Part shown: in pieces, positions 15,792-39,499 of the stretch | How positions within the stretch are numbered: position 1 is the stretch's first letter | Layout: every line of letters starts with the position of its first letter | Assembly: GCA_964544025.1 (NCBI GenBank) | Contig: CAZJCL010000001.1 | Location: 55,824-95,322 of the forward strand | Direction of reading: 5' to 3' | Source: an uncultured Opitutales bacterium | GTDB lineage: Bacteria; Verrucomicrobiota; Verrucomicrobiia; Opitutales; T3Sed10-336 | DNA: 39,499 nt | Translations under genes and position numbers: made by a program | The notes under the pieces: generated by a model | Seen by the model: the letters and a program-made list of their open reading frames with translations, nothing else | Told to the model about the DNA's origin: nothing | The model's database searches: none

Positions 15792-18700
15792 CTCGATTCC
15801 ATGTTGGCTGGTGAGGAGGCAGCGCCGGAGGCGGTTTACGTTTCGGCGATCGAGGTGGAGGAGACGGTTTGTGGCGCGGCGGCGATGGAGATGGAGGAGG
15901 GGAGCGAGGAGCTCTTCGACGGGGCGGCGGATTTGGAGTCGACGGCGTCTCCCTTGGAGGAACCGGGGGAAATGGCTATGCAGCCTTTCTCTGAAGTGGA
16001 GACGAGCGCTCCGGCGATTTTTCAAAGCGGTTTTACGATTATCGATCCGGGAACGACGCATACGTTTCGTTCGACGACGGGCGGCATTTTTTTCTCGGGT
16101 CCGGGATCGATTGACGGAACGCCGGGAGCGACGGAGGAGAACGTGCGTTTTATTTCGGCGACGGCGATTTCCATCGACGTTCCGATCGGCGGAGCGAGTC
16201 CGATTCACGATTTGATCGTTTCGGCCGGATCGAACATTTTTTTCGGCGGGAGCATTCACATCACCGGCGATTTGATCGTGGAGCGGGGGGCGCAGGTGAC
16301 GTTCGACCGCGACGTGACGGTGGAGGGGAACATCATTATCGGAGACGAATCGGCGCCAGGGGATGTGGGAGGCGTGACCTTCAACGCGAACAGCATCGTC
16401 AACGCCGGGGGCGAAATTCGTATTCATACGAGCGGTGGAGTGGAGTTTCGCAACAGCGTGGGCGCGACGATGGTTCCCGATTTGGTGGAAGTTGTCGCGG
16501 GCGGGACGGTCAATTTCTTTCACGAACTGACGGCGGGAACGGCGGCGGTTTCCGGGGCGAATGTGAATTTCGAGCGGGCGGTGCGCGTGGACGAAGCGTC
16601 GATCACGGCGGCGGATTTGCTGACGATTGGGAACGTATTCGAGATTGGAAACGGGGACGCGGTACTGACGGCGAACCGGGTCGGTTTCACGGGCGGTTAC
16701 GGGTCGTTGCAATCGACGGGCGCGGCGTCGACGTTGACGATCCGGCCTTTCACGGCGTCGCGGGCGATCGGGATCGGGGATCCTTCGGGCGGGACTTTCA
16801 ACCGGTTGCAGATTTCGCATGTGGAGTTGAACGCGATCAACAACGGATTTCGGGAGTTGATCATCGGAGATTTGGTGGCGGGGACGGGGGAAGTCCGGAT
16901 CGCGAATATCGGTTTGGCGCAAACGGTGGCAATCGCGCAGATCCAGAACGCGGCGACATTCGCGGGCGGATCGGTGATTGTGGAAGGACGCGTGGATGTG
17001 GATGGTCTCGCGGATTATCTTCGTTTGGTGGCGCGGACGGGGGATGTGGTGGTCGACGAGGCGATCAACCAATCCGCGACGGAGCGGAATGGATGGGTGC
17101 GGATCGAGGCGGCGCGGGATATCGTCGTGAACCGGCCGGTTTTCGCGCTGGACCGGATTTCGCTGACGGCGGGTTATTTTGGTGGAAACGGGAGCGTGAT
17201 CGTCCATTCGACGGGAGCGGATTCCGGGCAGTTGTGGACCACGGGAACGGGTCCGGCTTTTTCGGAGCGGAGGATTGAAATAAGCGCGGGCGAGGGTGGA
17301 GGAGATATTGTTTGGACGGACGGTTCCGGGGCGGTGACTTTTTGGGCGGCGGGTTCGGGCGGGGCGATTGCGATGCGGGCGCCGGCGGGGGCGATCAGGC
17401 AAAACGGCGGCGTGATTCGCGCCGAAGTGCTGGCGGTTCGGTCGTTTGGAGATGTTTCCATTGTGTCGGCGGAGGTGGACCGGATCGGGCTGGTGGAGTT
17501 TTCGGGCGCGGCGTTGTTTTCCGGAGTTGCGGATTCGATCGACGGTATTGTGATCGCGGGGCCGGGCTCGTTGAATTTTGCCGGATTGCAATCTTTGGTT
17601 GTTGATCGTGTGACCACCGATGGCGGCGACATAACGTTGATCACGAGGGCGGTGATCGGAGCGGATTTGACGCTTGGCCGAATTGCGTCCGGGAGCGGAA
17701 ATATTTCGTTGAGCGCCGACGGATCCATTGTGGATGGTTTGGCGGGGGCGGGTATTGTGAATCTTGCCACGAGCGGTCGGGTCGCGTTGATCGCGAGCTT
17801 GGGAATCGGCGGTTCGGGGAGCGCGGATATCGATACGCGTGTTGGAGGTTTGGCCGCGACGAATTTGGCGACCGGGGGGATTTACATTCACGACCGCGGG
17901 AATCTGGTGATCGATGGCGCGGTTGAGACGCTGGCCGGGGACGGATCGATTATTCTCGTGGCGGAGGGCGCGGTTTTCACGGTGAACGCGACGGTTTCGG
18001 CGCATGGCGGAGGGGACGTTTTGCTCGATGCGCCGGCGGGGGACCTTGTTTTGGATGCGGCGGTGAGGTCGGCGGAAGGACATTTGACGATCCGGGCGGA
18101 GAACAATCTCGCGTTGGCGGGTTCCGCTTCCGTCTGGACGGGTGCTCCTGGGACGATTTTGCTGCGGACGGCGACGGGGGCGATTTCGATGAGCGGAACT
18201 TCGGCGGTCGCGGCGACGGGATCGAATTTGCGGGTCGAGGGCGGCGGGGATATCGGGTTGGGAAATCTTTCGGCGGAGCGGGTGGCGGTGGTTTCGGCGG
18301 GAGGATCGATTTTCAATTCCAGCGGATCGGCGGCGAATGTGACGGCGGACGAGTTGCGGCTTGAAGCGGCGAAAGCGGTCGGTTCGGCGGCGGTTGCGTT
18401 GACGACGGATGTTGCGCGAATCGCGGCTTTTGCGGGAAGCGCGGATGGGGTGTCGAAGGGGATTTATCTTGCGCAAGACGGCGCGGTTTCGGTTTCGGAA
18501 ATCGGGCCGGTCTCGGTTGAGGCGGTTTCGGCGGAGGGTGGTTCGAGCACGGTTGCGGATGTTGGAGGGTTGAGCGGACTTCGGACGGGGAACAACGGCA
18601 ATATCGTGTTGGTCGCGGCGGGCGAGGCTCGCCTCGACGATGGAGCGGGGGATGGAATCGCGGTATCGGCGGACGGTTCGGGGCGGGTTCGGATCGAGGC

Positions 18701-21700
18701 GGCGGGGGCGGGGAGCGATGTTATCGCGTTGGGCGATGTCCGGAGCGCGACCGGTCATGTGACGATGGTCGCGGCCGGGGCGGTTTCTCTCGGAAGCGGA
18801 GTTTCAGTGGCGACGGCGGGGGCGGGGACGATTTTTATTCGGGCCGAGGGCGGAAGCGTGACGATGGCGGGCGACGCACGGGCGGTGGCCGCGAATTCGG
18901 CGGTGCGGGTTTCCGCTTTGTCCGATATTTATCTCGGCGAAATCGCCGGAGCGGATGTTTCGGTGGAGGCGGAAGGAGGGTCGATTTTGGCGGCGACGGG
19001 ATCGACGATGAACGTTGCGGCGTCGCGGCTTCGTTTGGAGGCGGACGGTTCGGCGGGAACGGAGGCGGCGCCACTGGTGACGAGCGTGACGCTGTTGGCG
19101 GCGGTGGCCCGCGGGAACGGCGGCGGTCGCGGGATTTTTGTGCGGCAGTATGGGGATGTTTCGGTGACGCCGCTTCGGATCGACGGGTTTGCCGTTTCGG
19201 CGGATGGGAGCGAGGTGCCGTGGTCGGACGGGATGTTGCCGGTGGTGGCGGAGAATGGCGGCGATGTGCGGATTGTCGCGGACGGATCGGTGGATTTGAT
19301 TGCCGGGACGGGGAGCGGGAACGCGGTTTTGGCGGGCGGTTTCGTTGAGGTTCGCGCGCAGGGAGTGGGGAGCGATCTGACGGTTTCGGGGGATGTTCGG
19401 GCGGAAAACGGGGCGGTCGATCTTTTCGCGGGCGGAAGCGTGGAGCTTGTTGTGGGGAGCGCGGTGGTGGCGGCGGGGAATAAGGCGGTCGCGATTCGGG
19501 CCGAGGGCGGGACGTTGACGATGGCGGATGGCGCGACGGTGGCGACGGCGGCCGGGCGGGTGACTTTGTTCGCGAAAGGGGATGTTCTGGTTTCGGCGAT
19601 AATTTCGGAAACGGGGGATTTGTTTGTCGCGAGCGAGGAAGGGGCGATTTTCGATAACACGGCGGCCGAGACTCCGAATTTGGCGACGCTCGGGACGGCG
19701 CATCTTTTGGCGGCAACCGGGATTGGCGTGGCGGGGGATGGCGATCTGGATTCGGGAGTTTCGTTTCTGACGGCGCGGAACACGACTTCGGGAGATATCG
19801 CGATTCATGCGGCACGGAATTTGACGATTTCGAGCGCGGCGGAAATCACGTCGGGCGGAGTGCGGAATGAAGGGGTTGGCGGTTCGGTTTTGATCGATAC
19901 GCGGAACGGATCGATTGCGGTTGCGGGGGAAATATTCGCGGAAGGCGGGAACATTCTTTTGGAAACGTCGGGAGTTGGCGGCGGGAATTTGCGGATCGAC
20001 GCGCCGGTGACGGCGGTTCGGGGAGCGATCACTTTGCACGCGCGGGAAGCGTTTTCGATCGACGCGGCGGTGGCGGCGGTCGCGGGGGGAACGATTTTTC
20101 TTTGGGCGGAAAACGGGGGGTTGACGCTTTCGCCGGGGGCGACGGTGACAACGGCGGATGAATCCATTTTTATCCGCGCTCATGGAAACGCGATTGTTAC
20201 CGGAATCGACGCGGGGACGGGCGGTGTTTCCGTGGTTTCCGGGACCGGCGCGATCATCGACGGTGGCGACGCGAACCGCGATATGGCGGCGGGGAGTTTG
20301 CGGTTGTCCGCTTTCGGCGGGATCGGCGCGGGGAACGCGCTGGATATCGACGTGCGGAATTTGGCGGCGGCGGCGAATGGCGGAATCGATTTGTCGAATT
20401 TCGGGGATGTGGCGGTGGATACGGTTTCGGCGGTTTCGGTCGAGCGGGTTTTGCGCGATAATACGGTCGCGATGGTTGGGGACGCGGGGCGGGTCAGCGA
20501 TTTGACGACGACGGGTGGGAATATCCGGCTAGTAAGCGAAACGGGAGCGATCACGTTGCGCGATGGATTTGATAACGATCTGGTCGCGGTGGATGCGGGA
20601 GGCGGGTCGATTTCGATTTTCGCGGCGACGGAGATTGCGCAGTTCGCCAACGTTGTGACGGCGGGTTCGGGGACGATCGCGTTGGGGGCGGAAAGTGGCT
20701 CGATTTTGATGAGCGATGGGGCGGCGGCGGTTGGTGTCGCCGGGTCGATCGTGTATTCGGCGGGTGGGGATATTTGGGTTTCGCGTATCGAAACCGCGAG
20801 TGGTGATTTGAGTCTGACGGCGGGGAGCCGGATTTTGGATAACACGGTCGCGGAAACGCCGAATTTGATCACGTCGGGTTTGGTTTCGTTGGATGCGCGG
20901 AACGGAATCGGGGACGTGGGAGTGGCGGATATCGACACGGAAGCCGGCTCGTTGGTCGCGGTCAACCGGATTGGCGGGCGAATCGTGATCGAGGAAGCGG
21001 ACGGTTTGGTGGTTTCGGGTTCGGGAATTTCGAATTTGGGCGGCGATATTTTGGTTACGGTCGTTGCGGGAAATCTTGTGGTCGGCGGCGATGTGTCGGC
21101 GGGTGGAGCGGGCAATGTTCTTCTTCGGACGACGGCGGGGAGCGGCGCGATTTCGGGGACGGCGAATGTTTCGACGGATTCCGGACATATTACGATTTTT
21201 TCGCCGCGCGCGATTCAATGGAGCGGATCCGCGAGGATTATGGCGGGAGGAGCGGGTTCGTTGACGGTTTCGGCGGGAGCGAGGTCGGTGAGTTTCGGGA
21301 GCGGAGTGTTGGTTGGTTCCACGAGTGGAGATGCGCGATTGACGGCGGCGGCGGATGTTTCGCTGGGCGGGGTTTCGACGAGCGGGAAAGTTTTTGTCCA
21401 GGCGGGGTCGGGGTCGATTTTCAATAACAGCGACACTTATGTGAACATCGTTGCGAGCGGTGTGCGTCTTGAGGCGGGGACGGGCGTCGGGGTTTTGGGC
21501 GCGTCGGCCCGTCCGGTGACGATCGACGCGGGAACAGTGGCGGCGCGGGCGACTTCCGGCGGGATCAATCTTCTCGAATCGACGTCGGTTTCGGTGGGGA
21601 GCGTTTCGGTTTTGACGCGACGAGTGAACGCGGATGGTTCGTTCACGGAGGAGACGGGGGCGGCGGTTTCGGATTTGGCGACGACGGGCGGAAACGGGTC

Positions 21701-33700: not shown

Positions 33701-36700
33701 GGGAGCGGGAGCGAACGCGATCGAAGCGGCGGTGGGGAGGTTGTCGGCGCGGGCGGGTGCGGGCGGTATTAATGTTTTGGCGACGTATGGACTGGTGATT
33801 GGAGACGTTGCGGTGGTGACGCAGCGGGTGGGCGCGGATGGGTCGGTGACGGCGGTGACGGATGAAGCGCAGTCGGATGTGGCGACGATCGCGGGGAACG
33901 GTTCGATCGTGGTGCGGACGCTGGGCGGGGATTTGGTGTTGAACGACGGTTCGGCTCCGGAGGACGGGGTTTCCGTTTGGAGTCATGGCAGCGGGAACAT
34001 CCGGTTGGAATCGGGAGGGGCGACTTCGGATTTGTTGGTGAACGCGGATGTGCGGTCGGATTCGGGGAACGTGACGCTGTTGGCGGGCGGTTCGCTGATT
34101 TTCGCGGATGAGGCGGGGATTTCGACAGACGGGTTTGTCGATTTGGAGGCGATCGCGGGAAGTATTGTTACCGGAGGGGCTTTGCGGATTTCGGGCGGGA
34201 ATATCCGGTTGCATGCCGGGGACGATATTGTTCTGGGGAGCATTTTGAGTTCCGGCGACGTTTCGGTTTCGTCGGCGAATGGATCGATTCTGAATGGGGG
34301 AACCGGCGGGGTGAATATCGTGGCCGACCGGTTGCGGTTGTTCGCCGGAGCGGGAATCGGGACGTTGGGTGCGGGGGCGAATGCGCTGACGACCAGGGTG
34401 AACGCGTTGACGGCGCGGGCGGGATCCGGCGGGATTAATATTTTCAATACGGGATCGGTGACGGTGAGCACGGTCGGCGTGGTGACCGGGCGGGTCGGCA
34501 TCGATGCTTTGGTGACGACGGTGACGGTTCCCGAGCAGTCGGATTTGGCGACGGCGGGGAATGGTTCGATCGTTTTGCGGACGGTGGATGGCGGAATCGC
34601 GTTTGACGAAGGGCGAAGCGTGTCGGCTCACGGAGAGGGGAATGTTCTTTTGGAAGCGACGGGATCGGAAAGCGCGGTTGTTATTGGCGGGGCGGTTTTG
34701 TCTGGAGCGGGACATGTGACGGTGACGGGGGAAAGCGGCGTTACGTTTAGCGGTATTGGTGCGCGGATCGCGACGGGCGGGGCGGGGACGGTGACGGTGG
34801 AATCGGGGCGCGGAATTTCGATGGCGGCGGTTCACGAAATCGTGGCGGAGAGCGGGAATATCCGGCTTGTCGCCGATTTGTCCGTTACGGTTGGACGAAT
34901 CGCGACGGCGGGGGATGTTTCGATGGTGGCCGGCAGGGCGATCCGAGGGGCGGCGGGAAGTTCGGTTCATGTCGAAGCGGCCGGTTTGCGTTTGGATTCG
35001 CGGGCGGGAATCGGCGGGATGGGATTTGCGCCGTTTGTTACGGATGTTTCCGTTCTGAGCGCCCGTGTAGAAGACGGACGTATCACGATTTTGGAAATGG
35101 ACGATCTCACAATCGACGGGGTTGCGGTGATGGTTCACAAGGTCGGGGCGGATGGTTCGACCGCTCCGGTGATGGACGTGTTGCAGTCGGACGTGGTTTC
35201 CGGGGGGGACGTAATTCTCGGAACGGTGAACGGGACGCTGACGTTGAACGACGGTTCGGCTCCCGGTGACGGGATCGCAGTTTCGGCCGGTTTGAACGTG
35301 CGGCTCGAAGCGGCCGGGGCGGAGTCGGATCTTGTGGTGAACGGGGAAATCCGGTCGGCGACCCGGGCGGTCGATTTGCGGGCGGGGAGATCGGTGATTT
35401 TTGATTCCGGCGCGCGGGTGGTCGCGTTGGGGCAGGGGACGGTGAATGTGGAGGCGGCGGGTGGCGGAATCGCGATGGCGGATGGCGCGTTGATCGACAC
35501 GGCGTTGGGGATTCGGCTTCATGCGCACGGAGATGTGGTTTTGGGCGGGTTGCGGGTTTGGGAAACGGTCGGGAAAGTGGCGGTTGTTTCCGCGAGCGGA
35601 TCGATTTTGGACGGGGGCGACGCGCATATCGATGTGGTGGCGAAGGAGCTTTCGCTGTGGGCGGCGGCGGGAATCGGGGAATTGGGCGAGGAGGCGGACG
35701 CGATCGAAACGCGGGTGGGCGTGGTTTCGGCTTGGAGCGGCGGCGGGGTTAATCTTTTGGAGACGGATGGGCTCGTGGTCGGCGCGGTGGCGGTTTCGGT
35801 GCGGCGGGTGGATGCGGATGGAACGGACGCGGAATTTACGGCAGAGGCTTTGTTCGGGTTGACGAGCGGCGGCGCGACGGTGGTGCGGACGGTTGAGGGG
35901 GATCTGGTTTTGACGGCGGGGAGCGGAGGGGAGCGCGCGGTGGAAGCGGCCGGGAACGTTCTATTGGCGGCGGGCGGAATCAGGGCGGATTTGACGGTCG
36001 GGGGCGGCGTGGTTTCCGGAGGGCATTTGACGTTGCTGGCGGGGCGATCGGTGACGGTGGCGTCGGGAGTGACGATTTCGGGCGCGGGAACGGCCAACGT
36101 GGAAGCGGGCACCGGATCGATTTTGATGGGGGCGGGAAGCCGGGTGGAAACGGCGGGGAATGTCCGGATGGCGGCGGCGACGGATGTTGTTTTGGGCGTT
36201 TTGGAGACGGGTGGGGATGTTTCGATTACCGCGGTGGCGGGTTCGATTTTGCGGAACGCGGAGGAAACGGGTGCGTTGGTTGCGCGGATGTTGCGGTTGA
36301 ACGCGGGGGCGGGAATCGGGATTTTGGGTGAGGGAGCTTATCCGTTGTTGACGTCGGTGACGAGGGTTTCGGCGCGGGCGGGGAACGGCGGAATTAATTT
36401 GTTCAATACGGGCAGTTTGACGGTCGGCCTGGTTCGGGTGGCGGTGTCGAAGGTTTTGGCGGACGGCGGAACGGAAATGGTCGAGGATGGGCCCCAGGCG
36501 GATTTGGTGACGGCGGGCGGAGATGGTTCGATCGTGGTGCGGGTATTCGACGGGGATTTAGTTTTGACGGATGGCCCGGGCGGGGAAGCGGGGGTGGCGG
36601 TTTCGGCGCACGGCGCGGGGAATATTTTGCTGGCGACCGACGCGGGGAGGTTGATCCGGGTCAATGCGGGCGTGGTCTCGGCGAATGGGAATATCTCGAT

Positions 36701-39499
36701 TTTGGCGGGCGGGGAGATTGTTTTTTCCTCGGGAGCCGATGTGAGCAGTGGGAGCGGAACGATCGATATCGAAGCGGCGGGCGGATCGATTCGGATGGGG
36801 GGCGGAAGTCGGATTGAGGGGGGCGCGGGGGATATTCGGCTGCACGCGGCGAACGATGTGGCGCTCGGTGGCGTGAGTAATTTAGGAGATGTTTCGATTA
36901 CCGCGTTGAGCGGATCGATTACGGGAGCGGGTTCGGGCGATGTTGACGTGGCGGCGGGCGGGTTGCGGCTTTTCGCGGGCGGTGCAATCGGAGAGCCGAC
37001 GGCGCACTTGCGGACTTCCGTCGCGACTTTGACGGCCCGGTCGGGAACGGGAGGGATTTATGTGGAGGAAACGGATTCGGTGATCGTTGGGTGGGTTGAT
37101 GTTTCGGTGGAACGCGTGGGGGACAATGGCCGGACGACTTCCGTGGGTGCCGGTTTGCAAACGGGTCTCGCGACGGGAGGGAGCGACGGGAATCTGGTTT
37201 TTCGCACGATCGGCGGAAGCATTGTTTTGGATGGGGGTGTCGCGGTTTCGGGTGAGGCGAATCTTCTTTTGAGCGCGGGGGGAGCCGGTTCGGATTTGGT
37301 GGTTAATTCTTCGGTTTCGTTTGGAGCCGGGGCGGCGAGCCTTCACGCGGGGCGGTCGATTTTTGTCGGAGTTGGGGTGGAGATTTCGGGAACGAACGTT
37401 GGCGATCTGGATCTGGAGGCGGTCTCGGGTTCGATCGTGATGGCGGATGGGGCGAGGGTTGCGAGCGGAACCGGAGCGATACGTTTGCGCGCGGCGGGTG
37501 ATGTGATTTTGGGAGAGGTGCGCACCGGTGGCGATGTTTCGATCATCGCGGAAGGCGGCTCGATTTTGGACCGGAATGGGGATTTCGCGAATGTGACGGC
37601 GCGCCGTTTGCGATTGGTGGCGGGGTCGGGAATCGGCACGCTGGGCGCGGAGGCCGATGCGATCGAGACGAAGGTGGAGCGGCTTTCGGCGCGGGCTGGC
37701 GGCGGGGGAATTAACATCCGTCAAGAAGGAGCGCTCGCGATCGGAGATGTATCGGTCTCGGTTCGCCGGGTAGGGATTTCCGGAACCACAATGCGGTTGG
37801 CGGACGCGATGCAGTCGGATGTGGCGACGGTGGGCGGAAACGGGTCGATTGTTATCCGTGTGATTGGTGGCGGGATTACTCTGGACGACGGTTCCGTGCC
37901 GGTAGATGCGGTCGCGGTTCGCGCTCACGGCAGTGGAAATGTTTTAATCGAGGCGAGCGGCGCGGGAGCGGATATTGTGGCGAACGTTTCGTATGTGCAG
38001 TCGGGTTCGGGTCACGTTTCTCTGCTGGCTGGTCGATCCGTGATTCTTCAGGGCGGGGCGGGAGTGATGACGGGCGGCGCGGGAACGGTGAGCGTGGAAG
38101 CGCTGGCGGGAGTGGTTTGGATGTCGGCCACGAGCAATATTTTCAGCGGAACCGGGAATGTCCGGTTGGTGGCGGCGACGGACGCGGCGATCGGACATGT
38201 GGCGACGGCGGGAGATGTGTCGATTCGGGCGGGCGGAAATATTTTCGGGATTTCGGATTTCAATTTGGTCGCGCACCGGGCGCGATTGGAGGCGGGCGGA
38301 AGTATCGGAGTTTCAAGGGGGGCGGGTCGCGCGATTGGGATGGAGGTTTCGGTGGTGAGTGCTCTAGCGGGCGGCGGAGGAGTTCATCTGTTTAACGGAA
38401 TCGCGCTGACGGTTGGCGAGGTGGAAGTCGCGGTGTGGAAGGTCGAGGCGGATGGCGGGGTGTCGGTGGTGACGGAGGCGGCGTTGTCGGGAATTCGCGC
38501 AACGGCGGGCGATGGCACGGTCGTTGTTCGGAGTTTGGGCGGAGTTGTCGTGGACGACGAAATCATGGCGGATGGAGTGGGGACGATTTTGGTGGAGGCG
38601 ATCGGCGTGGACGCTGTTTTGGCGGTGAATGCGGGGGTGCGATCCGGGATTGGGCATGTGACGTTGATCGGCGATTCCGTTTCGGTGGCGGATGGCGTGA
38701 CGGTGTTTAGCGGCGCGTCGGGGACGGTGGAGATCGTGGCGCGTGGAGGTGCTATTGCGATGGGCGTGGGGAGTCGCGTGGATTCGGGCTCGGGGAATGT
38801 GCGGTTGGCGGCGGCGGGGGATGTCGTTTTGGGACGTTTGGTTACCACGCGCGCGGTTTCGATTTTGGCGGCGGGAGGATCGATTTTGGGTGCCGGGAAT
38901 GAGGAACCGGTTGTGACGGCTTCGGCGTTGCGGATGGTTGCGGGCGGCGCGATTGGAACGGGAGCGAATCCGCTGGAGATCGATGTGGGGACGGTGAGCG
39001 CGCGGGCGGAGAATGGCGGGATTTATTTGCGGGCGGGTTCGGCGATTGTTGTTGGATCGGTGGCGGTGGCGGTGCAACGAGTGGGGGAATCCGGCGGGGT
39101 GTCGGAGGTTTCGGATGCGGCTTTGGCGGGAGTGGCGACGTTGGGGGGGAATGGATCGGTTGTGATTCGGGCGGGCGTGGGTTTGACAGTTAACGCGGGT
39201 GTCGCGGCGCATGGGAGCGGGAATGTTCTGCTGGAGGCGGGCGCTGTGGATGCGGAAATTTCGCTTCGGGCGAGTGTGACGTCGGGGAGCGGACATATTT
39301 CGGTTTTGGCGGGGCTGTCGGTGACGTTTGGCGCGGGCGCGGATATCGTGAGCGGCGGAGCGGGAACGGTGGATATCGCGGCGGGCGGCGGGGCGATTTG
39401 GATGGCGGACGCGAGCCGGATCGACGCGGGGGCGGGGAATGTGCGGTTGAGCGCGGCGGGCGATGTGACGTTGGGCGGAATTTTGACGACGGGGAACGT
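15720..39499 (+). CDS. Giant secreted beta-solenoid-like repeat protein of at least 7,926 codons; the 3' end lies beyond the window (not in the supplied ORF track)
   Basis: The ATG is at 15720 and the nearest in-frame upstream stop is TAG 15678-15680. I found no in-frame stop through nt 39499, by hand translation of long stretches plus checks of suspicious taa/tag/tga strings I noticed. The track lists no + ORF in this frame after 15664, which is only possible if the frame never closes. The translation is periodic and protein-like, whereas the antisense ORFs are Arg/Pro/His-rich. Confidence 0.93.
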   Translation, partial: MSKARIVSFAVEALESRILLSAAPLDSMLAGEEAAPEAVYVSAIEVEETVCGAAAMEMEEGSEELFDGAADLESTASPLEEPGEMAMQPFSEVETSAPAIFQSGFTIIDPGTTHTFRSTTGGIFFSGPGSIDGTPGATEENVRFISATAISIDVPIGGASPIHDLIVSAGSNIFFGGSIHITGDLIVERGAQVTFDRDVTVEGNIIIGDESAPGDVGGVTFNANSIVNAGGEIRIHTSGGVEFRNSVGATMVPDLVEVVAGGTVNFFHELTAGTAAVSGANVNFERAVRVDEASITAADLLTIGNVFEIGNGDAVLTANRVGFTGGYGSLQSTGAASTLTIRPFTASRAIGIGDPSGGTFNRLQISHVELNAINNGFRELIIGDLVAGTGEVRIANIGLAQTVAIAQIQNAATFAGGSVIVEGRVDVDGLADYLRLVARTGDVVVDEAINQSATERNGWVRIEAARDIVVNRPVFALDRISLTAGYFGGNGSVIVHSTGADSGQLWTTGTGPAFSERRIEISAGEGGGDIVWTDGSGAVTFWAAGSGGAIAMRAPAGAIRQNGGVIRAEVLAVRSFGDVSIVSAEVDRIGLVEFSGAALFSGVADSIDGIVIAGPGSLNFAGLQSLVVDRVTTDGGDITLITRAVIGADLTLGRIASGSGNISLSADGSIVDGLAGAGIVNLATSGRVALIASLGIGGSGSADIDTRVGGLAATNLATGGIYIHDRGNLVIDGAVETLAGDGSIILVAEGAVFTVNATVSAHGGGDVLLDAPAGDLVLDAAVRSAEGHLTIRAENNLALAGSASVWTGAPGTILLRTATGAISMSGTSAVAATGSNLRVEGGGDIGLGNLSAERVAVVSAGGSIFNSSGSAANVTADELRLEAAKAVGSAAVALTTDVARIAAFAGSADGVSKGIYLAQDGAVSVSEIGPVSVEAVSAEGGSSTVADVGGLSGLRTGNNGNIVLVAAGEARLDDGAGDGIAVSADGSGRVRIEAAGAGSDVIALGDVRSATGHVTMVAAGAVSLGSGVSVATAGAGTIFIRAEGGSVTMAGDARAVAANSAVRVSALSDIYLGEIAGADVSVEAEGGSILAATGSTMNVAASRLRLEADGSAGTEAAPLVTSVTLLAAVARGNGGGRGIFVRQYGDVSVTPLRIDGFAVSADGSEVPWSDGMLPVVAENGGDVRIVADGSVDLIAGTGSGNAVLAGGFVEVRAQGVGSDLTVSGDVRAENGAVDLFAGGSVELVVGSAVVAAGNKAVAIRAEGGTLTMADGATVATAAGRVTLFAKGDVLVSAIISETGDLFVASEEGAIFDNTAAETPNLATLGTAHLLAATGIGVAGDGDLDSGVSFLTARNTTSGDIAIHAARNLTISSAAEITSGGVRNEGVGGSVLIDTRNGSIAVAGEIFAEGGNILLETSGVGGGNLRIDAPVTAVRGAITLHAREAFSIDAAVAAVAGGTIFLWAENGGLTLSPGATVTTADESIFIRAHGNAIVTGIDAGTGGVSVVSGTGAIIDGGDANRDMAAGSLRLSAFGGIGAGNALDIDVRNLAAAANGGIDLSNFGDVAVDTVSAVSVERVLRDNTVAMVGDAGRVSDLTTTGGNIRLVSETGAITLRDGFDNDLVAVDAGGGSISIFAATEIAQFANVVTAGSGTIALGAESGSILMSDGAAAVGVAGSIVYSAGGDIWVSRIETASGDLSLTAGSRILDNTVAETPNLITSGLVSLDARNGIGDVGVADIDTEAGSLVAVNRIGGRIVIEEADGLVVSGSGISNLGGDILVTVVAGNLVVGGDVSAGGAGNVLLRTTAGSGAISGTANVSTDSGHITIFSPRAIQWSGSARIMAGGAGSLTVSAGARSVSFGSGVLVGSTSGDARLTAAADVSLGGVSTSGKVFVQAGSGSIFNNSDTYVNIVASGVRLEAGTGVGVLGASARPVTIDAGTVAARATSGGINLLESTSVSVGSVSVLTRRVNADGSFTEETGAAVSDLATTGGNGSIVLRTLDGGIRLLDGDVANGVAVQAHGSGNVLLEAGGSGAEILAGADVRSVSGHVSVVAAGSVAFSAGADILTGLAGTIYVEAVAGSVAMDDASRFSSVSGGIRVVAGGDVLLGGISTGGNVAIIAGGSILDNGDTRVDVSANGLLMNAGVGVGTLGAGANAIETSVSVLTARGGAGGIHVRESGDLVVGDVTVTVRKVSADGTVAAVVEGAQSDVATVSGDGSIVLRLTNGSLRLTAGATTSGNLAVSAHGAGNVLLDTIGAFTEIFADAGIGSGSGNISVTSAIRAGFGAGADIRTGSDGTIDVVARTGFISMDGDSVFSAEEGDIRLMAPAEILLGSLRTGGNVSVISQLASILDNGNGGVNIEARGARLFALADIGILVPIGVGSGPNPIDTDVAILTARSQAGDINILERRSVTVADVAAMVNRVNPDGSTAEVRDEAQADILTLGENGSIVLRSEGGDIFLSDGAMLVDGSAGEDGIAVSAHGSGSILIEAMGAGTDVSATADIRSGTGHITLIGARSLEFGGDTEVFTGGGGTLYLEAVTGNVEQAGDSRFVADQGDVRIAAGNSILLGGVTTNGDVSLIAGRGSILDSGNVVGRENVVARDLRLVAGSGIGTPGNHFETRVEVLSARAGSDGIFLWETDGLTVDATGATVSRVNADNTLTTVSDAEQSGVATVAGNGSIVIRTLGGNLTLDDGVAGDGDAISAHGSGNILLEAAGAGTDILAGAAIRSGSGHVTLLAARAVYFSTGADVATGGAGTIEIAARDGSITMADGVRFSSGSGDLRLHAAGSVWVGGLATGGNVSILAATGSILGNGDAQIEVVASGLRLVAGVGVGKLGVGAVPFRTTVATVTARAGGGGINLLETDALVVDDVAVTVKRVNQDATVTDFTDAAQADVATVSENGGIVIRTLAGSLTLNDGAAGADGWAVSADGSGNVLVEAGGVGAIVLANAGIVAGSGHVSVVAARSVSFAGSAGIATGGSGTIFMASISGNVSQADASRFVAENGDVRVIAAGDFRIGGITTGGNVSLIAESGSILDGGDAFGGEDVIANRLRMTAGAGIGTGNAIETRVSRLSARAGAGGIFIRETDALTIDDTWASVLRVLADGGTVGTLDSAQSDVRTADGGSIVIRSAGGSITLNDGTALADGVSVSAAGGGNVLVETIGGGGDVGVSADIVSGSGHVSVLAGRNVLFGAGADIWTGGAGTLNIEAATGSVVMDDETRFGAETGSVRVYAAVDVIVGGVSTGGDVSISAVGGSIRSAGDSYLDVVADGLRLVAGGGIGKSGAENDPIRTSVAVLSARTGSGGINLVEADALVVDDVRVAVERVNFDASTTAAVDAVQSGIVSGGSVLLRTLGGDLTLNAGSAPANGIAIEKTGAGTILVEAAGAGTSVFVNGEIAGYRGDVSVIADRSVVFADAGISLNVIFSGTIFVRAGAGSIVMEGESIFRSAGGDMRLEAFEDVRLGQLRAGVYGGGTTISVTATSGSILNNAPEMSLNVAADRLRLVAGIGVGVLGELAKAVETQVGSVAVRAGGGGINILNRGDLAVEGVASKVNRVNEDGSVTALAEAVLSDVRTVSGNGSIVLRTLGGDLTLNDGTAPADGIAVSAHGTGNIRLEAAGAESDLLVNANVESGGGYISMLGGRDIRFAAGVRVSGSGKTLDLEAGSGSIVMGDGTVFDGGAADIRLRAGLDVVVGGIATSGNVSITSVAGSVLSGGKAEVDVAANGLRLAAGTGVGTLGVGAKALRTAVATLSARSETGSINILNTGMLAVDDVAVSVFRVGIDGVADVVTDAAQSDVRTFGGNGSIILRTVAGNLTLNDGTASADGVAVSAHGTGNILLEAGGAVSDLAVNAEVRSGSGNITLLAGRNVGIGAVSVTTGGAGTIDVEAEAGSISMADGGSISAADGNVRLHAAGDVILSGIRTSGDVAVTANWGSILDGGDTYVDVAANGLRLLSRGGIGTLGTGANGIETAVATLSARADDGGIHIVEADALVVGTVGVAVRRVMANGLLTWVTYLGQSDVRTTGDGSIVLRTISGDLTLTDGTGPADGVAVSARVNVLLEAGGADSDLLVNADVRLELGAASLVAGGSVTLGAGVRIANGGRGSIEVEASGGSITMSEGSSISGGSGTVHLWAAVDVSLGEVSTTRDVWIVALAGSISDNGVDSVNVAARNLRMVAGVGIGTLGAGADAIETRVSVLNARAGSGGINILEADDLEIGAFAVSVRRVERDGTIGGEVPLRAAAEDGRVATTDGDGSIVVRTVAGSLVLGDGVWAVPATVSADGSGSILLEANGAGSDVIVGGRVEAVSGSITVAAARSVSILGDFWIWSGTGTTDVEARGGSIEMSPLAWVGGNHLRLRAAEDVVLGSAFAAGNASITAVDGSISRGSAGGIDVTAGGLRLSAGTGIGTLGAGAMPLRTNAMILSARAGGGGVNVLEANALVVGTVSVTVQRVMADGSLTALTDAGQSDAATTGGNGSIVLRTVVGSLGLTDGVGPADGVAVSAHGTGNVLLEAGGAVSDLAVNADVRSGSGNVTLRAGRNVTFAGTGVLTGGMGTVFVEAAGGSIGMGDASLIFAESGNVRLRAAGSVTLGGVWTGGHVSIIAANGSILDGGDSYTDVVASGLRLVAGVGIGTLGGGANGIDVAAGTLSARGGSSGVHVVATNALTVGTVSVTVQRVAADGSVTPVTDAALSDVRTTGGDGSVVLRTLAGNLTLTDGTAFADGVAVSAHGAGNVLLEAGGAVSDLAVNAEVRSGSGNITLLAGRSVRIGEVAVTTGGAGTVDVEAGAGSISVADGGAVSAGDGNVRLRAAGDVVLSGIATGGDVSVTSVSGWILDGGDTFADVAANGLRLSAGAGIGTLGAGANGIETVVARLSARAGGGGIHVLEADALIVGTVGVAVRRVTADGSVTLVTDEAQSDVVTTGGDGSIVLRTVAGSLTLTDGTGLADGVAVSAHGAGNVLVEAGGAGADLAVNAAVVSGSGHVTLFARRSAIFAASSVATGTGGTISVEAATGSISMSVGSRVDGAGSIRLYAAESVRLSEVVSTGGDVSVTAVSGSILGNGDGRVALAGEGIRLVAGVGIGTLGAVVNPVGMSGGTVSARAGSGGINLLETDSLVVGTVSVTVERVAADGSVSTVTDAALSDVRTTGGNGSVVIRAVKGSLTLTDGMGAGDGVSVAAHGSGNVLLQAGGSSSDILIHASVTSGTGHLSLIAGRNVTLSAGTLVSSGGTGTVDIEATAGSIMMADTSRVASEIGTIRLRAGTDVTLGGVEAKGNVSVEAIQGWILDGGDTYTDVIAQGLNLVAGVGVGRLGAGANAIETQAVILNARAGSGGINVVEADGLRTGVSMSMHVFRVLPSATLFLRAAGVATGIQTIGGDGSVVIRTLAGSLELNSVVANDYRAAIAHGSGNILLHAGGAGSNLTLNGGVVSGEGHISLIANRSVVIAQPREVATGSGSVNVEASQGTIFMVNGSRILSGAGNIRLHAAEDVALGGIATTGDVSISAVAGSILDNGDAHLDVAANGLRIVAGVGIGTLGTGANGIETAVATVSARAGSGGVNILEADALTVGDVAVTVRKVRADATVESVQDAVQSDVRTISGNGSIVIRTVAGGLTLNDGTAAADGVAVSAHGSGNVFLEAGGSESLLNVNADVVSGSGHITLFSGRDAVLSGAQVLSGGLGTVVIRTGGSITMSEDSRIDGGAGNIQLAAARDVWLGGVRTSGGVSITAVSGSVLDSGGTSVNVEASGLRLMAGAGIGTLGAESNPIRTAVATLNAEAGAGGINILEADSLEIVIGDPVVFIVRRVLETGGTMGFIELYHRVLTTTSGNGDIVIRTTNGSIRLDSADGEWRGVAAHSSGNILLEAGGANSDLSAHVSVMSGGGHVTLLAGRNIELFAEVSTGIGTGEAGTVILEAGSGSITMADASLISTASGSVRLHAALDIVLGGILAGGNVAITAVGGSILDGGDVLEDVVAPGLRLVAGEGIGRLGAGANAIEAAVGRLSARAGAGGINVLATYGLVIGDVAVVTQRVGADGSVTAVTDEAQSDVATIAGNGSIVVRTLGGDLVLNDGSAPEDGVSVWSHGSGNIRLESGGATSDLLVNADVRSDSGNVTLLAGGSLIFADEAGISTDGFVDLEAIAGSIVTGGALRISGGNIRLHAGDDIVLGSILSSGDVSVSSANGSILNGGTGGVNIVADRLRLFAGAGIGTLGAGANALTTRVNALTARAGSGGINIFNTGSVTVSTVGVVTGRVGIDALVTTVTVPEQSDLATAGNGSIVLRTVDGGIAFDEGRSVSAHGEGNVLLEATGSESAVVIGGAVLSGAGHVTVTGESGVTFSGIGARIATGGAGTVTVESGRGISMAAVHEIVAESGNIRLVADLSVTVGRIATAGDVSMVAGRAIRGAAGSSVHVEAAGLRLDSRAGIGGMGFAPFVTDVSVLSARVEDGRITILEMDDLTIDGVAVMVHKVGADGSTAPVMDVLQSDVVSGGDVILGTVNGTLTLNDGSAPGDGIAVSAGLNVRLEAAGAESDLVVNGEIRSATRAVDLRAGRSVIFDSGARVVALGQGTVNVEAAGGGIAMADGALIDTALGIRLHAHGDVVLGGLRVWETVGKVAVVSASGSILDGGDAHIDVVAKELSLWAAAGIGELGEEADAIETRVGVVSAWSGGGVNLLETDGLVVGAVAVSVRRVDADGTDAEFTAEALFGLTSGGATVVRTVEGDLVLTAGSGGERAVEAAGNVLLAAGGIRADLTVGGGVVSGGHLTLLAGRSVTVASGVTISGAGTANVEAGTGSILMGAGSRVETAGNVRMAAATDVVLGVLETGGDVSITAVAGSILRNAEETGALVARMLRLNAGAGIGILGEGAYPLLTSVTRVSARAGNGGINLFNTGSLTVGLVRVAVSKVLADGGTEMVEDGPQADLVTAGGDGSIVVRVFDGDLVLTDGPGGEAGVAVSAHGAGNILLATDAGRLIRVNAGVVSANGNISILAGGEIVFSSGADVSSGSGTIDIEAAGGSIRMGGGSRIEGGAGDIRLHAANDVALGGVSNLGDVSITALSGSITGAGSGDVDVAAGGLRLFAGGAIGEPTAHLRTSVATLTARSGTGGIYVEETDSVIVGWVDVSVERVGDNGRTTSVGAGLQTGLATGGSDGNLVFRTIGGSIVLDGGVAVSGEANLLLSAGGAGSDLVVNSSVSFGAGAASLHAGRSIFVGVGVEISGTNVGDLDLEAVSGSIVMADGARVASGTGAIRLRAAGDVILGEVRTGGDVSIIAEGGSILDRNGDFANVTARRLRLVAGSGIGTLGAEADAIETKVERLSARAGGGGINIRQEGALAIGDVSVSVRRVGISGTTMRLADAMQSDVATVGGNGSIVIRVIGGGITLDDGSVPVDAVAVRAHGSGNVLIEASGAGADIVANVSYVQSGSGHVSLLAGRSVILQGGAGVMTGGAGTVSVEALAGVVWMSATSNIFSGTGNVRLVAATDAAIGHVATAGDVSIRAGGNIFGISDFNLVAHRARLEAGGSIGVSRGAGRAIGMEVSVVSALAGGGGVHLFNGIALTVGEVEVAVWKVEADGGVSVVTEAALSGIRATAGDGTVVVRSLGGVVVDDEIMADGVGTILVEAIGVDAVLAVNAGVRSGIGHVTLIGDSVSVADGVTVFSGASGTVEIVARGGAIAMGVGSRVDSGSGNVRLAAAGDVVLGRLVTTRAVSILAAGGSILGAGNEEPVVTASALRMVAGGAIGTGANPLEIDVGTVSARAENGGIYLRAGSAIVVGSVAVAVQRVGESGGVSEVSDAALAGVATLGGNGSVVIRAGVGLTVNAGVAAHGSGNVLLEAGAVDAEISLRASVTSGSGHISVLAGLSVTFGAGADIVSGGAGTVDIAAGGGAIWMADASRIDAGAGNVRLSAAGDVTLGGILTTGN
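15792..16013 (+). other. Acidic, Glu-rich low-complexity linker following the N-terminal motif
   Basis: The sequence is LDSMLAGEEAAPEAVYVSAIEVEETVCGAAAMEMEEGSEELFDGAADLESTASPLEEPGEMAMQPFSEVETSAP. It contains the only Cys I saw in gene 3. Confidence 0.6.
17700..39499 (+). repeat. About 33 tandem copies of a ~225-aa higher-order solenoid unit (645-708 bp in the regular part, 576-666 bp in the first six)
   Basis: The 'G-S-I-[LF]-[DN]' anchor occurs at about nt 17712, 18302, 18968, 19633, 20247, 20823, 21410, 22083, 22762, 23470, 24143, 24823, 25491, 26176, 26856, 27530, 28198, 28873, 29553, 30228, 30900, 31578, 32255, 32925, 33610, 34280, 34940, 35597, 36240, 36910, 37555, 38230 and 38875. A second landmark, SAHGSGN[VI]LLEA, recurs with the same period. 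Confidence 0.88.

What the first reader, a model, noticed from the sequence alone, without database searches (positions are those of the whole stretch)
17700..39499. A hierarchical ~225-aa solenoid unit repeated about 33 times, possibly an uncharacterised repeat family
Each unit has about ten ~20-residue rungs and fixed landmarks. My hand-derived consensus is:

GSILDGGD-x4-V-A-x-GLRLVAG-x-GIGTLG-x-GAN-x-IET-x-V-x3-SARAG-x-GGINLLE-x-D-x-L-x-VG-x-V-x-V-x-V-x-RV-[~18 variable]-QSDV-x-T-x-GGNGSIVLRT-x2-G-x-LTLNDG-x-A-x-ADGVAVSAHGSGNVLLEAGG-x3-DL-x-VNA-x-V-x-SGSG[HN][VI]TLLAGR-x-V-...-TGG-x-GT-x-x-VEA-x2-GSI-x-MADG-...-GN[VI]RL-x-AAGDV-x-LGG-x3-GDVSI-x-A

The period is 645-708 bp from 21.4 kb onward. 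The first six units (17.7-21.4 kb) are shorter and more degenerate.

Two positions per unit carry the few His residues: AHG in roughly 19 of 29 units I read, and SGSGH, which alternates with N. This fits stacked ladder positions.

I cannot place the unit in a named Pfam family from memory. It is not the FhaB, PATR, VCBS or RTX repeat as I know them.
Basis: partly seen in the sequence, partly recalled or inferred. Interest (0 to 1): 0.7.

Follow-up and report, generated by a model that had tools for sequence, protein, structure and literature searches.

The report
Giant beta-solenoid surface protein repeat
The region is the real coding sequence of a giant bacterial protein (over 7,900 residues and still incomplete). 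It is built from 33 copies of a ~225-residue beta-solenoid module that occurs in thousands of giant secreted proteins but is missing from the Pfam, NCBIfam and PDB copies searched; it is most likely a long rigid cell-surface fibre.

Summary
One frame stays open from 15681 to the window end. The likely start is 15720, and the N-terminus matches the NCBIfam LEPR-XLL signature. A unit HMM finds 27 full tandem units (21411-39497, 208-236 aa apart, E 1e-56 to 1e-87), preceded by about 6 shorter, degenerate units (17721-21410).

AlphaFold2 models are all-beta and very confident (one unit pLDDT 96; three units pLDDT 94.7, pTM 0.91). Coevolution over 830 units shows parallel stacking at about 24 residues, roughly 9 rungs per unit, and one hairpin excursion at residues ~65-96.

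Pfam, NCBIfam and PDB sequence searches give nothing significant, and Foldseek against PDB and BFVD does no better than E 0.08. The family is nevertheless large: 2,397 representative proteins, many of 5,000-7,900 aa. Of the best 150, 56 carry an LEPR-like N-terminal motif and at least 7 a TPS-like start; at least one relative ends in a FlgD-Ig/T9SS-like domain.

ORF1 is the C-terminal end of a paralogue. The giant / propeller protein / giant gene order recurs in the cultured verrucomicrobium Thalassobacterium sedimentorum.

Best reading: the shaft of a giant extracellular fibre or adhesin. It is a new variant of a known kind, of moderate interest.

The parts
15720..39497 (+). ORF3: giant gene, cut off at its 3' end by the window (at least 7,926 codons from the likely ATG start).
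   Evidence: The frame is stop-free from 15681 to 39497. The ATG at 15720 lies 55 nt after the ORF2 stop. The N-terminal 667 aa are 39-51% identical to the N-termini of P0055, P0013 and P0009.
15744..15809 (+). LEPR-XLL N-terminal signature (FAVEALESRILLSAAPL), residues 9-30 of ORF3.
   Evidence: NCBIfam NF012209 'LEPR-8K': E 1.4e-5, 24.5 bits against a cutoff of 17, profile positions 1-22 of 24. A regex for the same motif hits 56 of the 150 best homologues.
15810..17720 (+). N-terminal region that is beta-rich but not made of the 225-aa unit.
   Evidence: No Pfam or NCBIfam hit. It is homologous to the N-termini of other LEPR-type family members. The unit HMM gives only weak partial hits here.
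17721..21410 (+). About 6 shorter or degenerate copies of the unit.
   Evidence: HMM domains cover aa 681-1912. Two are full length (E 1.5e-54 and 2.4e-47) and the rest are split or weak.
21411..39497 (+). 27 regular tandem units of about 225 aa. The last one is cut by the window end at model position 216.
   Evidence: Each unit scores E 1e-56 to 1e-87 at 208-236 aa spacing. See also alignment A1 and the DNA period of about 675 nt.
27723..27818 (+). Example of the once-per-unit beta-hairpin excursion: residues 65-96 of the unit at 27531-28205. It includes the most variable stretch of the unit.
   Evidence: DSSP strands at 65-72 and 78-86. DCA hairpin couplings 70-78, 70-80 and 73-79, with 52-64 stacking onto 97-113 across the hairpin. 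Family-wide column entropy is 2.7-3.3 bits at positions 77-85.
3..7457 (+). ORF1: C-terminal 2,484 aa of a paralogous giant gene, cut off at its 5' end by the window. It comprises one unit (nt 3-551), a second kind of ~20-aa-rung solenoid (~552-5200), and a conserved ~750-aa C-terminal module (~5205-7454).
   Evidence: Unit hit at aa 1-183, E 6e-34. The C-terminal module is 30-49% identical to the C-termini of P0152, P0030, P0047, P0091 and P0013, and 36% identical to the giant gene upstream of P0013 in Thalassobacterium. No Pfam or NCBIfam hit.
7454..15664 (+). ORF2: a 2,736-aa protein with a signal-peptide-like N-terminus, lying between the two giant genes. It has a Ycf48/BNR-like propeller followed by 28 CHB_HEX_C_1/Fn3_assoc modules. 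It is a conserved neighbour, not part of the repeat.
   Evidence: Pfam hits. Its start overlaps the ORF1 stop (ATGA). A 464-aa orthologue (40% identity over 376 aa) occupies the same position in Thalassobacterium locus L015.

Best explanation
ORF3 encodes a giant exported protein of a verrucomicrobial (Opitutales-like) bacterium, more than 7,900 aa here and probably more than 10,000 in full. Its shaft is one continuous, rigid parallel beta-solenoid.

The shaft is built from a ~225-residue super-repeat. Each unit contributes about 9 stacked rungs of roughly 19-25 residues, and one beta-hairpin (residues ~65-96) that leaves the stack and packs against two long strands of the same unit.

Inferred: at about 0.47 nm per rung, the 33 units in the window would make a rod of about 140 nm with a hairpin every ~4.3 nm.

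The protein starts with an LEPR-XLL signature. By analogy with its paralogue ORF1, it should continue into a second solenoid region and a conserved C-terminal module.

The most likely role is a long extracellular fibre or adhesin-like spacer. It would hold a distal module, or a periodic array of variable hairpin loops, far from the cell surface for attachment to particles, polymers or other cells.

Shown: coding status, repeat anatomy, predicted fold, family size, domain partners and synteny. Inferred: export, rod dimensions and an adhesive or spacer function.
For: - Coding and repeat anatomy.
- Fold: AF2 gives pLDDT 96.0 / pTM 0.92 for one unit and 94.7 / 0.91 for three units. Both are all-beta with no helices, and the high pTM over 677 aa implies fixed inter-unit geometry.
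- Independent coevolution: separations peak at 20-25, and a chain of stacking couplings defines about 9 rungs and a skipped hairpin.
- The best, non-significant Foldseek matches are almost all beta-helical adhesins and enzymes: Ag43, EtpA, tapirin, pectate lyases, Hap, HMW1.
- Composition is typical of secreted solenoids: G 18%, A 14%, V 13%, S 9%, no Cys, K 0.3%.
- Family-wide conserved positions are almost only G/A/V/L/I/S/T, plus D5 and E56. There is no catalytic-looking motif.
- Extracellular location is supported by domain partners of the same unit in other proteins. The LEPR-XLL match is, and an LEPR-like motif (regex) occurs in 56 of 150. P0065 has a TPS secretion domain (PF05860, E 2e-28), and 7 of 150 have a TPS-like N-terminal motif by regex, including P0065. 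P0137 has a C-terminal FlgD_ig domain (PF13860, 36.3 bits against a cutoff of 27) that also matches the T9SS type A sorting domain just below cutoff (22 against 23 bits).
- Sources name relatives 'filamentous hemagglutinin N-terminal domain-containing protein', 'Autotransporter adhesin, partial' and 'LEPR-XLL domain-containing protein'.
- The neighbour ORF2 carries carbohydrate-enzyme-associated modules and is conserved in position.
Against: - No ligand-binding, enzymatic or anchoring domain was identified in ORF3 or in the ORF1 C-terminus.
- No secretion-system genes lie in the window.
- As far as I know, the role of the LEPR-XLL motif in export has never been shown experimentally.
- There are no expression or localisation data for this family.
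- No structural match reaches significance, and TM-scores to classical three-sided beta-helices are low (0.20-0.41). The cross-section or twist may therefore differ from textbook beta-helix adhesins.
- Handedness and rod dimensions rest on models whose coordinates I could not inspect.
Confidence: 0.6

Rival explanations
1. Contact-dependent delivery device. The rod acts as a Ca2+-stiffened needle or stalk, in the manner of CdiA/FhaB or VgrG. It would carry its C-terminal module into or onto a neighbouring cell, as recently proposed for the LEPRxLL giant proteins Cag_663 and Cag_665 of Chlorobium chlorochromatii.
For: - The preprint 10.64898/2026.03.19.712371 describes LEPRxLL N-termini, 12,000-14,000-aa repetitive parallel beta-helices, weak VgrG similarity and predicted cation sites every 249 +/- 57 aa. 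That spacing is close to this unit length.
- My profile's only PDB sequence hit is also a VgrG spike helix (8gra, E 1e-3).
- Some family members carry a TPS domain, as CdiA does.
- D5 and E56 are the only conserved charged positions, one each per unit.
Against: - No toxin, immunity or pretoxin domain was found in ORF1's C-terminus or next to it.
- No TpsB, TolC or T6SS genes lie in the window.
- Homology of this unit to the Cag_663/665 helix was not tested.
- The VgrG hit is marginal and covers only the regular rungs.
Confidence: 0.12
2. Passive structural surface element. The rods form a coat, sheath or spacer layer (capsule scaffold, S-layer-like brush, anti-grazing or anti-phage barrier) and bind no specific ligand.
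For: - Two paralogous giants lie in tandem, and the locus is conserved.
- Conservation is purely structural.
- No binding domain was detected.
- The repeats are old and evenly diverged, which suggests selection for length and stiffness rather than for particular sites.
Against: - The hairpin loop is the most variable part of each unit and differs between units. That pattern fits exposed interaction surfaces better than a plain spacer.
- The conserved C-terminal module suggests a specific distal function.
Confidence: 0.2
3. Not a real gene: an assembly artefact or non-coding tandem DNA repeat that happens to stay open.
For: - Long repetitive genes are prone to mis-assembly.
- Long antisense ORFs also exist (2,311 aa on the minus strand).
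Against: - 7,939 stop-free codons.
- Units are only 60-90% identical in DNA, so collapse or expansion by the assembler is unlikely.
- Conservation is at the protein level, with hundreds of independent homologues from isolates and MAGs.
- The coevolution signal is consistent with the predicted fold.
Confidence: 0.01

Closest known systems
LEPR-XLL ('LEPR-8K') domain-containing giant proteins (NCBIfam NF012209), e.g. WP_308985623.1 of Thalassobacterium sedimentorum
   Same: - Same N-terminal signature, scoring above the curated cutoff.
- Same N-terminal region (40% identity), the same 225-aa units and, through ORF1, the same C-terminal module.
- Same gene order.
   Different: The NCBIfam model describes only the 24-residue N-terminal motif. 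It says nothing about the shaft, and the repeat unit itself has no model in Pfam or NCBIfam.
EtpA C-terminal repeat modules (ETEC TpsA adhesin; PDB 8vbb; PMC11463764)
   Same: - A super-repeat of almost the same size: four modules over residues 641-1534, about 223 aa each.
- Each EtpA module gives 9 strands per face of a parallel beta-helix, and the modules act together as a multivalent lectin. This unit has about 9 rungs per ~225 aa.
- Some homologues of this unit sit behind a TPS domain, as in EtpA.
   Different: - No sequence similarity: EtpA is absent from the PDB profile search even at E<=10.
- Foldseek gives E 0.5 and TM 0.20.
- In EtpA the only extra-helical inserts are in the N-terminal secretion domain, so its repeat modules carry none. 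This unit has a hairpin excursion.
- ORF3 has no TPS domain.
Chlorobium chlorochromatii giant symbiosis proteins Cag_663 / Cag_665 (bioRxiv 10.64898/2026.03.19.712371)
   Same: - LEPRxLL N-terminus.
- Very long, rigid, repetitive parallel beta-helix.
- Weak VgrG similarity.
- A predicted feature recurring about every 250 aa.
- Two giants in tandem separated by one gene.
   Different: - Those helices are reported to carry InterPro filamentous-hemagglutinin motifs. None is detected here.
- The intervening gene there is TolC-like. Here it is a propeller/CHB_HEX_C_1 protein.
- Direct homology of the units was not tested. A Chlorobiaceae MAG does carry this unit (L002, 50% identity).
FhaB/CdiA/HMW1-type TpsA shafts and autotransporter passengers (Ag43, Hap, pertactin)
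   Same: - Monomeric parallel beta-solenoid rods exported to the cell surface.
- Rungs of about 19-25 residues.
- These proteins dominate the (non-significant) Foldseek lists.
   Different: - No Fil_haemagg, PATR, pertactin or autotransporter-barrel hits.
- Their repeats are single rungs, not a 9-rung super-repeat with a hairpin.
- TM-scores are 0.31 or lower for these proteins.
VgrG C-terminal spike beta-helix (PDB 8gra)
   Same: It is the only PDB sequence hit. It aligns to unit positions 100-225, the regular rungs (E 1e-3).
   Different: - The score is marginal.
- From my own knowledge of the family, VgrG helices are intertwined trimers attached to gp27/gp5-like domains. No such domains are found here.

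Membership tests
LEPR-XLL domain-containing giant proteins (NCBIfam NF012209) | N-terminal ~24-residue LEPR-XLL motif scoring above the curated cutoff | tested here: met
   24.5 bits against a cutoff of 17, E 1.4e-5, residues 9-30, profile positions 1-22 of 24.
LEPR-XLL domain-containing giant proteins (NCBIfam NF012209) | Extremely long repetitive protein. The '8K' in the model name refers to the typical length; this reading is from my own knowledge. | tested here: met
   At least 7,926 codons and still open at the window end. Relatives are 4,500-7,900 aa.
TpsA / filamentous-haemagglutinin family (T5bSS) | N-terminal TPS secretion domain (PF05860) | tested here: not met
   No Pfam hit at E<=1 in ORF3 aa 1-1897. 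The domain is present in other carriers of the unit, e.g. P0065 at E 2e-28.
TpsA / filamentous-haemagglutinin family (T5bSS) | Fil_haemagg / haemagglutinin repeats in the shaft | tested here: not met
   No Pfam or NCBIfam (including TIGRFAM-derived) hit on three units or on the first 1,897 aa.
TpsA / filamentous-haemagglutinin family (T5bSS) | Adjacent TpsB transporter gene | tested here: inconclusive
   The window holds only ORF1, ORF2 and ORF3. Both flanks are cut inside giant genes.
RTX / T1SS giant adhesins (LapA, SiiE, MpIBP type) | RTX nonapeptide repeats and Ig-like or cadherin-like extender domains | tested here: not met
   No HemolysinCabind, Big, cadherin or VCBS hits in ORF3 or in the ORF1 C-terminus.
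Classical autotransporters (T5aSS) | C-terminal beta-barrel translocator; PATR or pertactin passenger repeats | tested here: not met
   The ORF1 C-terminus has only a sub-threshold ChlamPMP_M match (12.8 bits against a cutoff of 25, E 0.12). ORF3's own C-terminus lies outside the window.
EtpA-type C-terminal repeat modules | Detectable sequence or structural homology to the EtpA repeat modules | tested here: not met
   Absent from the PDB profile search at E<=10. Foldseek against 8vbb_A gives E 0.5, TM 0.20. Only the module size (~223 against ~225 aa) and the number of rungs (9) agree.
Parallel beta-solenoid (beta-helix) architecture | Successive rungs stacked in register and in parallel, at a spacing of about 18-30 residues | tested here: met
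   DCA separations peak at 20-25 (mode 24), with chains 14>39>60>107>131>154>178>202>222. DSSP shows regular short strands. hhalign finds self-similarity at a shift of 46.
Parallel beta-solenoid (beta-helix) architecture | Right-handed, three-sided cross-section (pectin-lyase-like fold) | not testable with these tools
Foldseek matches to pectate lyases, Ag43 and similar proteins are not significant (E>=0.08, TM<=0.41).

The most novel reading that the evidence does not exclude
The ~225-residue unit (about 9 rungs plus one hairpin 'wing') is an undescribed, structurally distinct beta-solenoid super-repeat family. It forms the shaft of giant secreted proteins in many phyla. Organism labels so far include Verrucomicrobiota, Kiritimatiellia, Chlorobiaceae, Desulfobacterales and Desulfuromonadaceae, Beta- and Gammaproteobacteria, a Bacteroidetes MAG, Pirellulaceae and Spirochaetes. 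It is attached to at least two or three different terminal secretion-type domains. Its regularly spaced, variable hairpins would form a multivalent binding array along a rod longer than 100 nm.
Probability: 0.5. Interest if true: 0.5.

Novelty: new variant of a known kind. Interest (0 to 1): 0.4.

Why it matters
Giant repetitive surface proteins are among the largest and least annotated genes in environmental bacteria. Annotation pipelines name them only by their small terminal domains.

This module covers most of the length of thousands of such proteins, yet it has no model in Pfam or NCBIfam and no solved relative. A family model would annotate a large amount of 'dark' sequence and help recognise fragmented giant genes in metagenomes. 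It would also show that one shaft module is shared by LEPR-XLL, two-partner-secretion and FlgD-Ig/T9SS-like proteins.

Two cultured isolates carry the unit: Thalassobacterium sedimentorum SDUM461004 and Vreelandella aquamarina QJJ-865. That makes export through the unexplained LEPR-XLL signature, and the function of the rod, experimentally approachable.

The general idea, a beta-helical fibre or adhesin, is not new.

Tried and rejected
- The word-indexed protein search was of little use on this low-complexity sequence. With profile A1 it returned only 6 fragments. With the ORF3 N-terminus it returned nothing at E<=1e-10, although 40-51% identical relatives exist. With the C-terminus of the Chlorobiaceae locus L002 it returned nothing. 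That last search was my attempt to reach the Chl. chlorochromatii giants, so the link stays untested.
- The search for related loci with the 29-unit alignment failed because no stretch was conserved enough. A 6-unit alignment worked.
- An exact look-up of ORF2 found no record, so the window's source contig was not identified. The taxonomic placement rests on synteny and similarity to Thalassobacterium and Opitutales proteins.
- A higher-order (2- or 3-unit) period suggested by motif spacings was rejected. Mean identity is flat across lags 1-13.
- The idea of a His ladder with a conserved functional role was rejected at family level. Both His columns are high-entropy across 731 units.
- Rejected on direct searches: RTX, VCBS, PATR, Fil_haemagg and autotransporter membership; homology to viral tail fibres; a secretion-partner gene next to homologues (TPR, MsrB, MFS and SBBP proteins, nothing consistent).
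- MAFFT aligned some three-unit rows one unit out of register. I accepted this because unit-on-unit alignment is still homologous.
Full report
**1. What is in the window**

The window holds three co-oriented genes on the + strand.

- ORF1 (nt 3-7457) runs in from the left edge.
- ORF2 (7454-15664, 2,736 aa) starts on an ATGA overlap with the ORF1 stop.
- After a 55-nt gap, a third frame stays open from 15681 to the last full codon at 39497, which is 7,939 codons.

G+C is about 62-64% with a strong positive GC skew throughout, reflecting the Gly/Val/Ala-rich coding strand. The long antisense ORFs (for example 20529-27464, 2,311 aa) are best read as shadow ORFs of this biased repeat. Homologues and the domain signature support the + frame.

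**2. Checking the observation**

Motif spacings of 225, 450 and 675 residues were visible at once. An HMM grown from one unit finds 27 full-length tandem copies from ORF3 residue 1911 to the window end (nt 21411-39497). They lie 208-236 residues apart, each at E 1e-56 to 1e-87. About six shorter, split or weaker copies lie between residues 681 and 1911 (nt 17721-21410).

At DNA level, repeat families recur at multiples of about 675 nt (639-711) with 60-90% identity. Tandem Repeats Finder misses them only because its period limit is 500.

Units are 32-68% identical (mean about 47%). Identity does not decay with distance and there is no 2- or 3-unit super-period. The array is therefore old and evenly diverged, not recently amplified, which also argues against assembly artefacts.

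The His observation holds within this protein: AHG column 18 of 29; SGSG[HN] column 16 H and 6 N. One addition: ORF1 begins with a copy of the same unit (E 6e-34).

**3. The gene and its relatives**

Taking the ATG at 15720, residues 9-30 (FAVEALESRILLSAAPL) match NCBIfam NF012209, the LEPR-XLL ('LEPR-8K') domain, above the curated cutoff. Nothing else in Pfam-A or NCBIfam matches the first 1,897 residues or three regular units, even at E<=1.

The word-indexed protein search was swamped by low complexity. The exhaustive HMMER search of 1.84 billion cluster representatives with the unit profile worked. It found 2,397 proteins at E<=1e-3, 1,359 at E<=1e-10 and 605 at E<=1e-30. The best hits are 2,000-7,900 aa with 10-37 matched stretches to the unit profile.

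Among the best 150:

- 56 carry an LEPR-like N-terminal motif by regex.
- At least 7 begin with a signal peptide plus a TPS-like domain. This was confirmed for P0065 (PF05860, E 2e-28).
- P0137 ends in a FlgD Ig-like domain. That domain also scores just under the cutoff for the T9SS type A sorting domain.

No Pfam model covers the unit in any of these. The precomputed Pfam field is empty for P0013 and P0007. Source names refer only to terminal domains: 'LEPR-XLL domain-containing protein', 'filamentous hemagglutinin N-terminal domain-containing protein', 'FlgD immunoglobulin-like domain containing protein', 'Autotransporter adhesin, partial' and 'hypothetical protein'.

A scan of GTDB species genomes found the unit in records labelled as follows:

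- MAGs: Chlorobiaceae, Thiobacillus, Desulfuromonadaceae, Verrucomicrobia, Betaproteobacteria, Bacteroidetes, Desulfobacterales, Comamonadaceae and Pirellulaceae.
- One complete isolate genome: Vreelandella aquamarina QJJ-865.

**4. Whole-protein architecture and locus**

ORF3's N-terminal 667 residues are 39-51% identical to the N-termini of P0055, P0013 and P0009. ORF1's last ~750 residues are 30-49% identical to the C-termini of P0152, P0030, P0047, P0091 and P0013.

P0013 has both ends. ORF1 and ORF3 are therefore two paralogous genes with the same plan:

- an LEPR-XLL signature;
- an N-terminal region of about 650 aa;
- N copies of the 225-aa unit;
- a second, different Gly/Asp-rich solenoid region of ~20-aa rungs (ORF1 aa ~184-1780);
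- a conserved C-terminal module ending in a recurring '...NG..(I/V)F.R......(L/I).(L/V)...(F/Y)..' tail.

P0013 is WP_308985623.1 of Thalassobacterium sedimentorum SDUM461004, a cultured marine verrucomicrobium (PMC11980603). Its locus reads: giant gene (6,462 aa, C-terminus 36% identical to ORF1), then a 464-aa protein 40% identical to the ORF2 N-terminus with CHB_HEX_C_1/Fn3_assoc, then P0013.

The giant / propeller protein / giant order is thus conserved. The window most likely comes from a related Opitutales-type organism; this is an inference, because the source contig itself was not found. The best-scoring relative, P0007 (6,754 aa), sits directly downstream of a called gene of 21,146 aa.

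**5. Structure**

AlphaFold2 with the 29-unit alignment gives a single-unit model with pLDDT 96.0 and pTM 0.92. It is all-beta, with about 22 short strands. Three consecutive units give pLDDT 94.7 and pTM 0.91, with no helices and no low-confidence linkers. That implies one continuous rigid body rather than beads on a string.

Because I could not see coordinates, I looked for independent evidence.

- Profile self-comparison aligns unit positions 100-185 with 146-228 (shift 46, probability 93.5%). The C-terminal ~130 residues are therefore regular rungs of about 23 residues carrying a G-x-(V/I)-x-(L/V)-x-A motif.
- Mean-field DCA was run on 830 units (effective number 769) from 156 proteins plus the window. 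Of the top 150 couplings, 55 have separations of 20-25, with a mode of 24.
- The stacking chain runs roughly 14 > 39 > 60 > 107 > 131 > 154 > 178 > 202 > 222, which is about 9 rungs.
- Positions 52-64 couple to 97-113, skipping 65-96. Within 65-96 there are hairpin couplings (70-78, 70-80, 73-79).
- The strongest coupling of all, 44-86, and also 19-83, tie the hairpin to the long strands 13-22 and 36-47.

Together with the DSSP strings, this supports a parallel beta-solenoid of about 9 rungs per unit with one hairpin excursion.

Inferred: at about 0.46-0.48 nm per rung (EtpA: about 54 rungs in ~25 nm, PMC11463764), 33 units give about 140 nm.

**6. Comparison with known structures and families**

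- The PDB sequence search with the profile finds only a VgrG spike helix (8gra, E 1e-3, regular rungs only) and a weaker T6SS protein.
- Foldseek gives no match below E 0.08 for one unit or three units, and nothing in BFVD.
- The top of the PDB lists is almost entirely beta-helix proteins: tapirin, Ag43, EtpA, antifreeze and ice-binding proteins, pectate lyases, Hap, HMW1 and HpmA. TM-scores are 0.20-0.41. The general class is therefore right, but no solved structure is a close relative.

The nearest architectural analogue is EtpA. Its C-terminal region is four ~223-residue modules, each contributing 9 strands per face of a three-sided helix, and the modules act together as a lectin. No sequence or significant structural similarity to it was detected.

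The nearest biological analogue is the pair of LEPRxLL giants of Chlorobium chlorochromatii. These are described as 240-400 nm repetitive parallel beta-helices with weak VgrG similarity and predicted cation sites every 249 +/- 57 residues, and are proposed to act as Ca2+-dependent injection devices. Whether their helix is made of this unit could not be tested.

**7. Function**

Across 731 near-full units from 156 proteins, the conserved positions are Gly, Ala, small hydroxyl and aliphatic residues, plus D5 (70%) and E56 (70%). The His columns and the hairpin loop are variable. The composition has no Cys and almost no Lys or aromatic residues. This is the signature of a structural module, not an enzyme.

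The same unit sits behind a TPS domain, in front of a FlgD-Ig/T9SS-like domain, and behind the LEPR-XLL signature. That places it outside the cell. The step is an inference from domain co-occurrence.

I therefore favour a long rigid extracellular fibre or adhesin-like spacer (confidence about 0.6). A passive surface-layer role (about 0.2) and a contact-dependent delivery role (about 0.12) are the main rivals. The variable, regularly spaced hairpins and the conserved C-terminal module are the obvious candidates for interaction surfaces.

The carbohydrate-enzyme-associated modules of the conserved neighbour ORF2, and a GH127 gene next to P0007, hint weakly at polysaccharide or particle attachment.

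**8. Novelty and score**

The kind of object is known: a giant beta-helical surface protein of the LEPR-XLL class. Close relatives are already in RefSeq under a terminal-domain name.

Three things are not catalogued in Pfam, NCBIfam or the PDB copies searched:

- the 225-residue, ~9-rung-plus-hairpin super-repeat itself;
- its abundance;
- its use with LEPR-XLL, TPS and FlgD-Ig/T9SS-like terminal domains.

I rate it a new variant of a known kind, interest 0.4. It is useful for annotation and, through the cultured carriers, for studying LEPR-XLL export. It would not greatly surprise a specialist.

Noticed in passing
window 7454-15664 (+): ORF2 is itself a giant repeat protein. It has a signal-peptide-like N-terminus, a Ycf48/BNR-like propeller, 28 CHB_HEX_C_1/Fn3_assoc modules (DNA period 234/468 nt at 9565-14443) and three C-terminal '...YQLQTS.DL..W...FYRV' modules. 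A 464-aa orthologue occupies the same slot between two giants in Thalassobacterium (L015).
   Followed up: partly
window ~552-5200 (+), ORF1 aa ~184-1780: A second, different solenoid-like region: Gly/Asp/Thr-rich rungs of about 20 aa (e.g. GDV.V.G...I.SAG.L.I.GTF..GG). It has no Pfam or NCBIfam hit and only weak matches to the 225-aa unit.
   Followed up: no
window ~7380-7454 (ORF1 C-terminus); also L015 ~8500-8583 and the C-termini of P0009, P0013, P0014, P0023, P0028, P0030, P0034, P0048, P0078, P0091: The extreme C-terminus of LEPR-type family members shares a tail, '...(I/V)NG..(I/V)F.R......(L/I).(L/V)...(F/Y)..'. It could be a sorting signal or a capping strand. Other family members end instead in 'FDYW.E.L.L', in poly-Arg tails, or in '...FYRV' modules.
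   Followed up: no
L016/L017/L018 1-9829: A called gene of 21,146 aa lies immediately upstream of P0007, the best homologue. Its last ~3,200 residues give no hit to the unit HMM.
   Followed up: partly
window 20529-27464 (-) and 31707-35627 (-): There are very long antisense ORFs (2,311 and 1,306 aa) opposite the repeat. They are most likely shadow ORFs caused by the biased, G-rich coding strand, and gene callers could mis-call them.
   Followed up: no
L002 ~1200-2000 (Chlorobiaceae MAG): Downstream of two full units, this protein carries ~70-aa repeats (A..PL.I.A..L.A.A.GGNI.L.DTAGGVAVGLV.AGG) that resemble only the first third of the 225-aa unit. The unit may be a composite of older sub-modules.
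   Followed up: no
L001 (GCA_037975565.1 contig JBBCBH010011374.1) 1-11415: A homologous giant gene is broken into about 12 short ORFs in shifting frames, all hitting the unit HMM. This is either a pseudogene or frameshift errors in the assembly.
   Followed up: no
window 7454-15664 (ORF2): NCBIfam reports 'DUF499_antiphage' at E 2.8e-88, but at 297 bits against a cutoff of 1,200 and in 20 short stretches. It is a repeat-driven spurious match, not a defence gene.
   Followed up: partly
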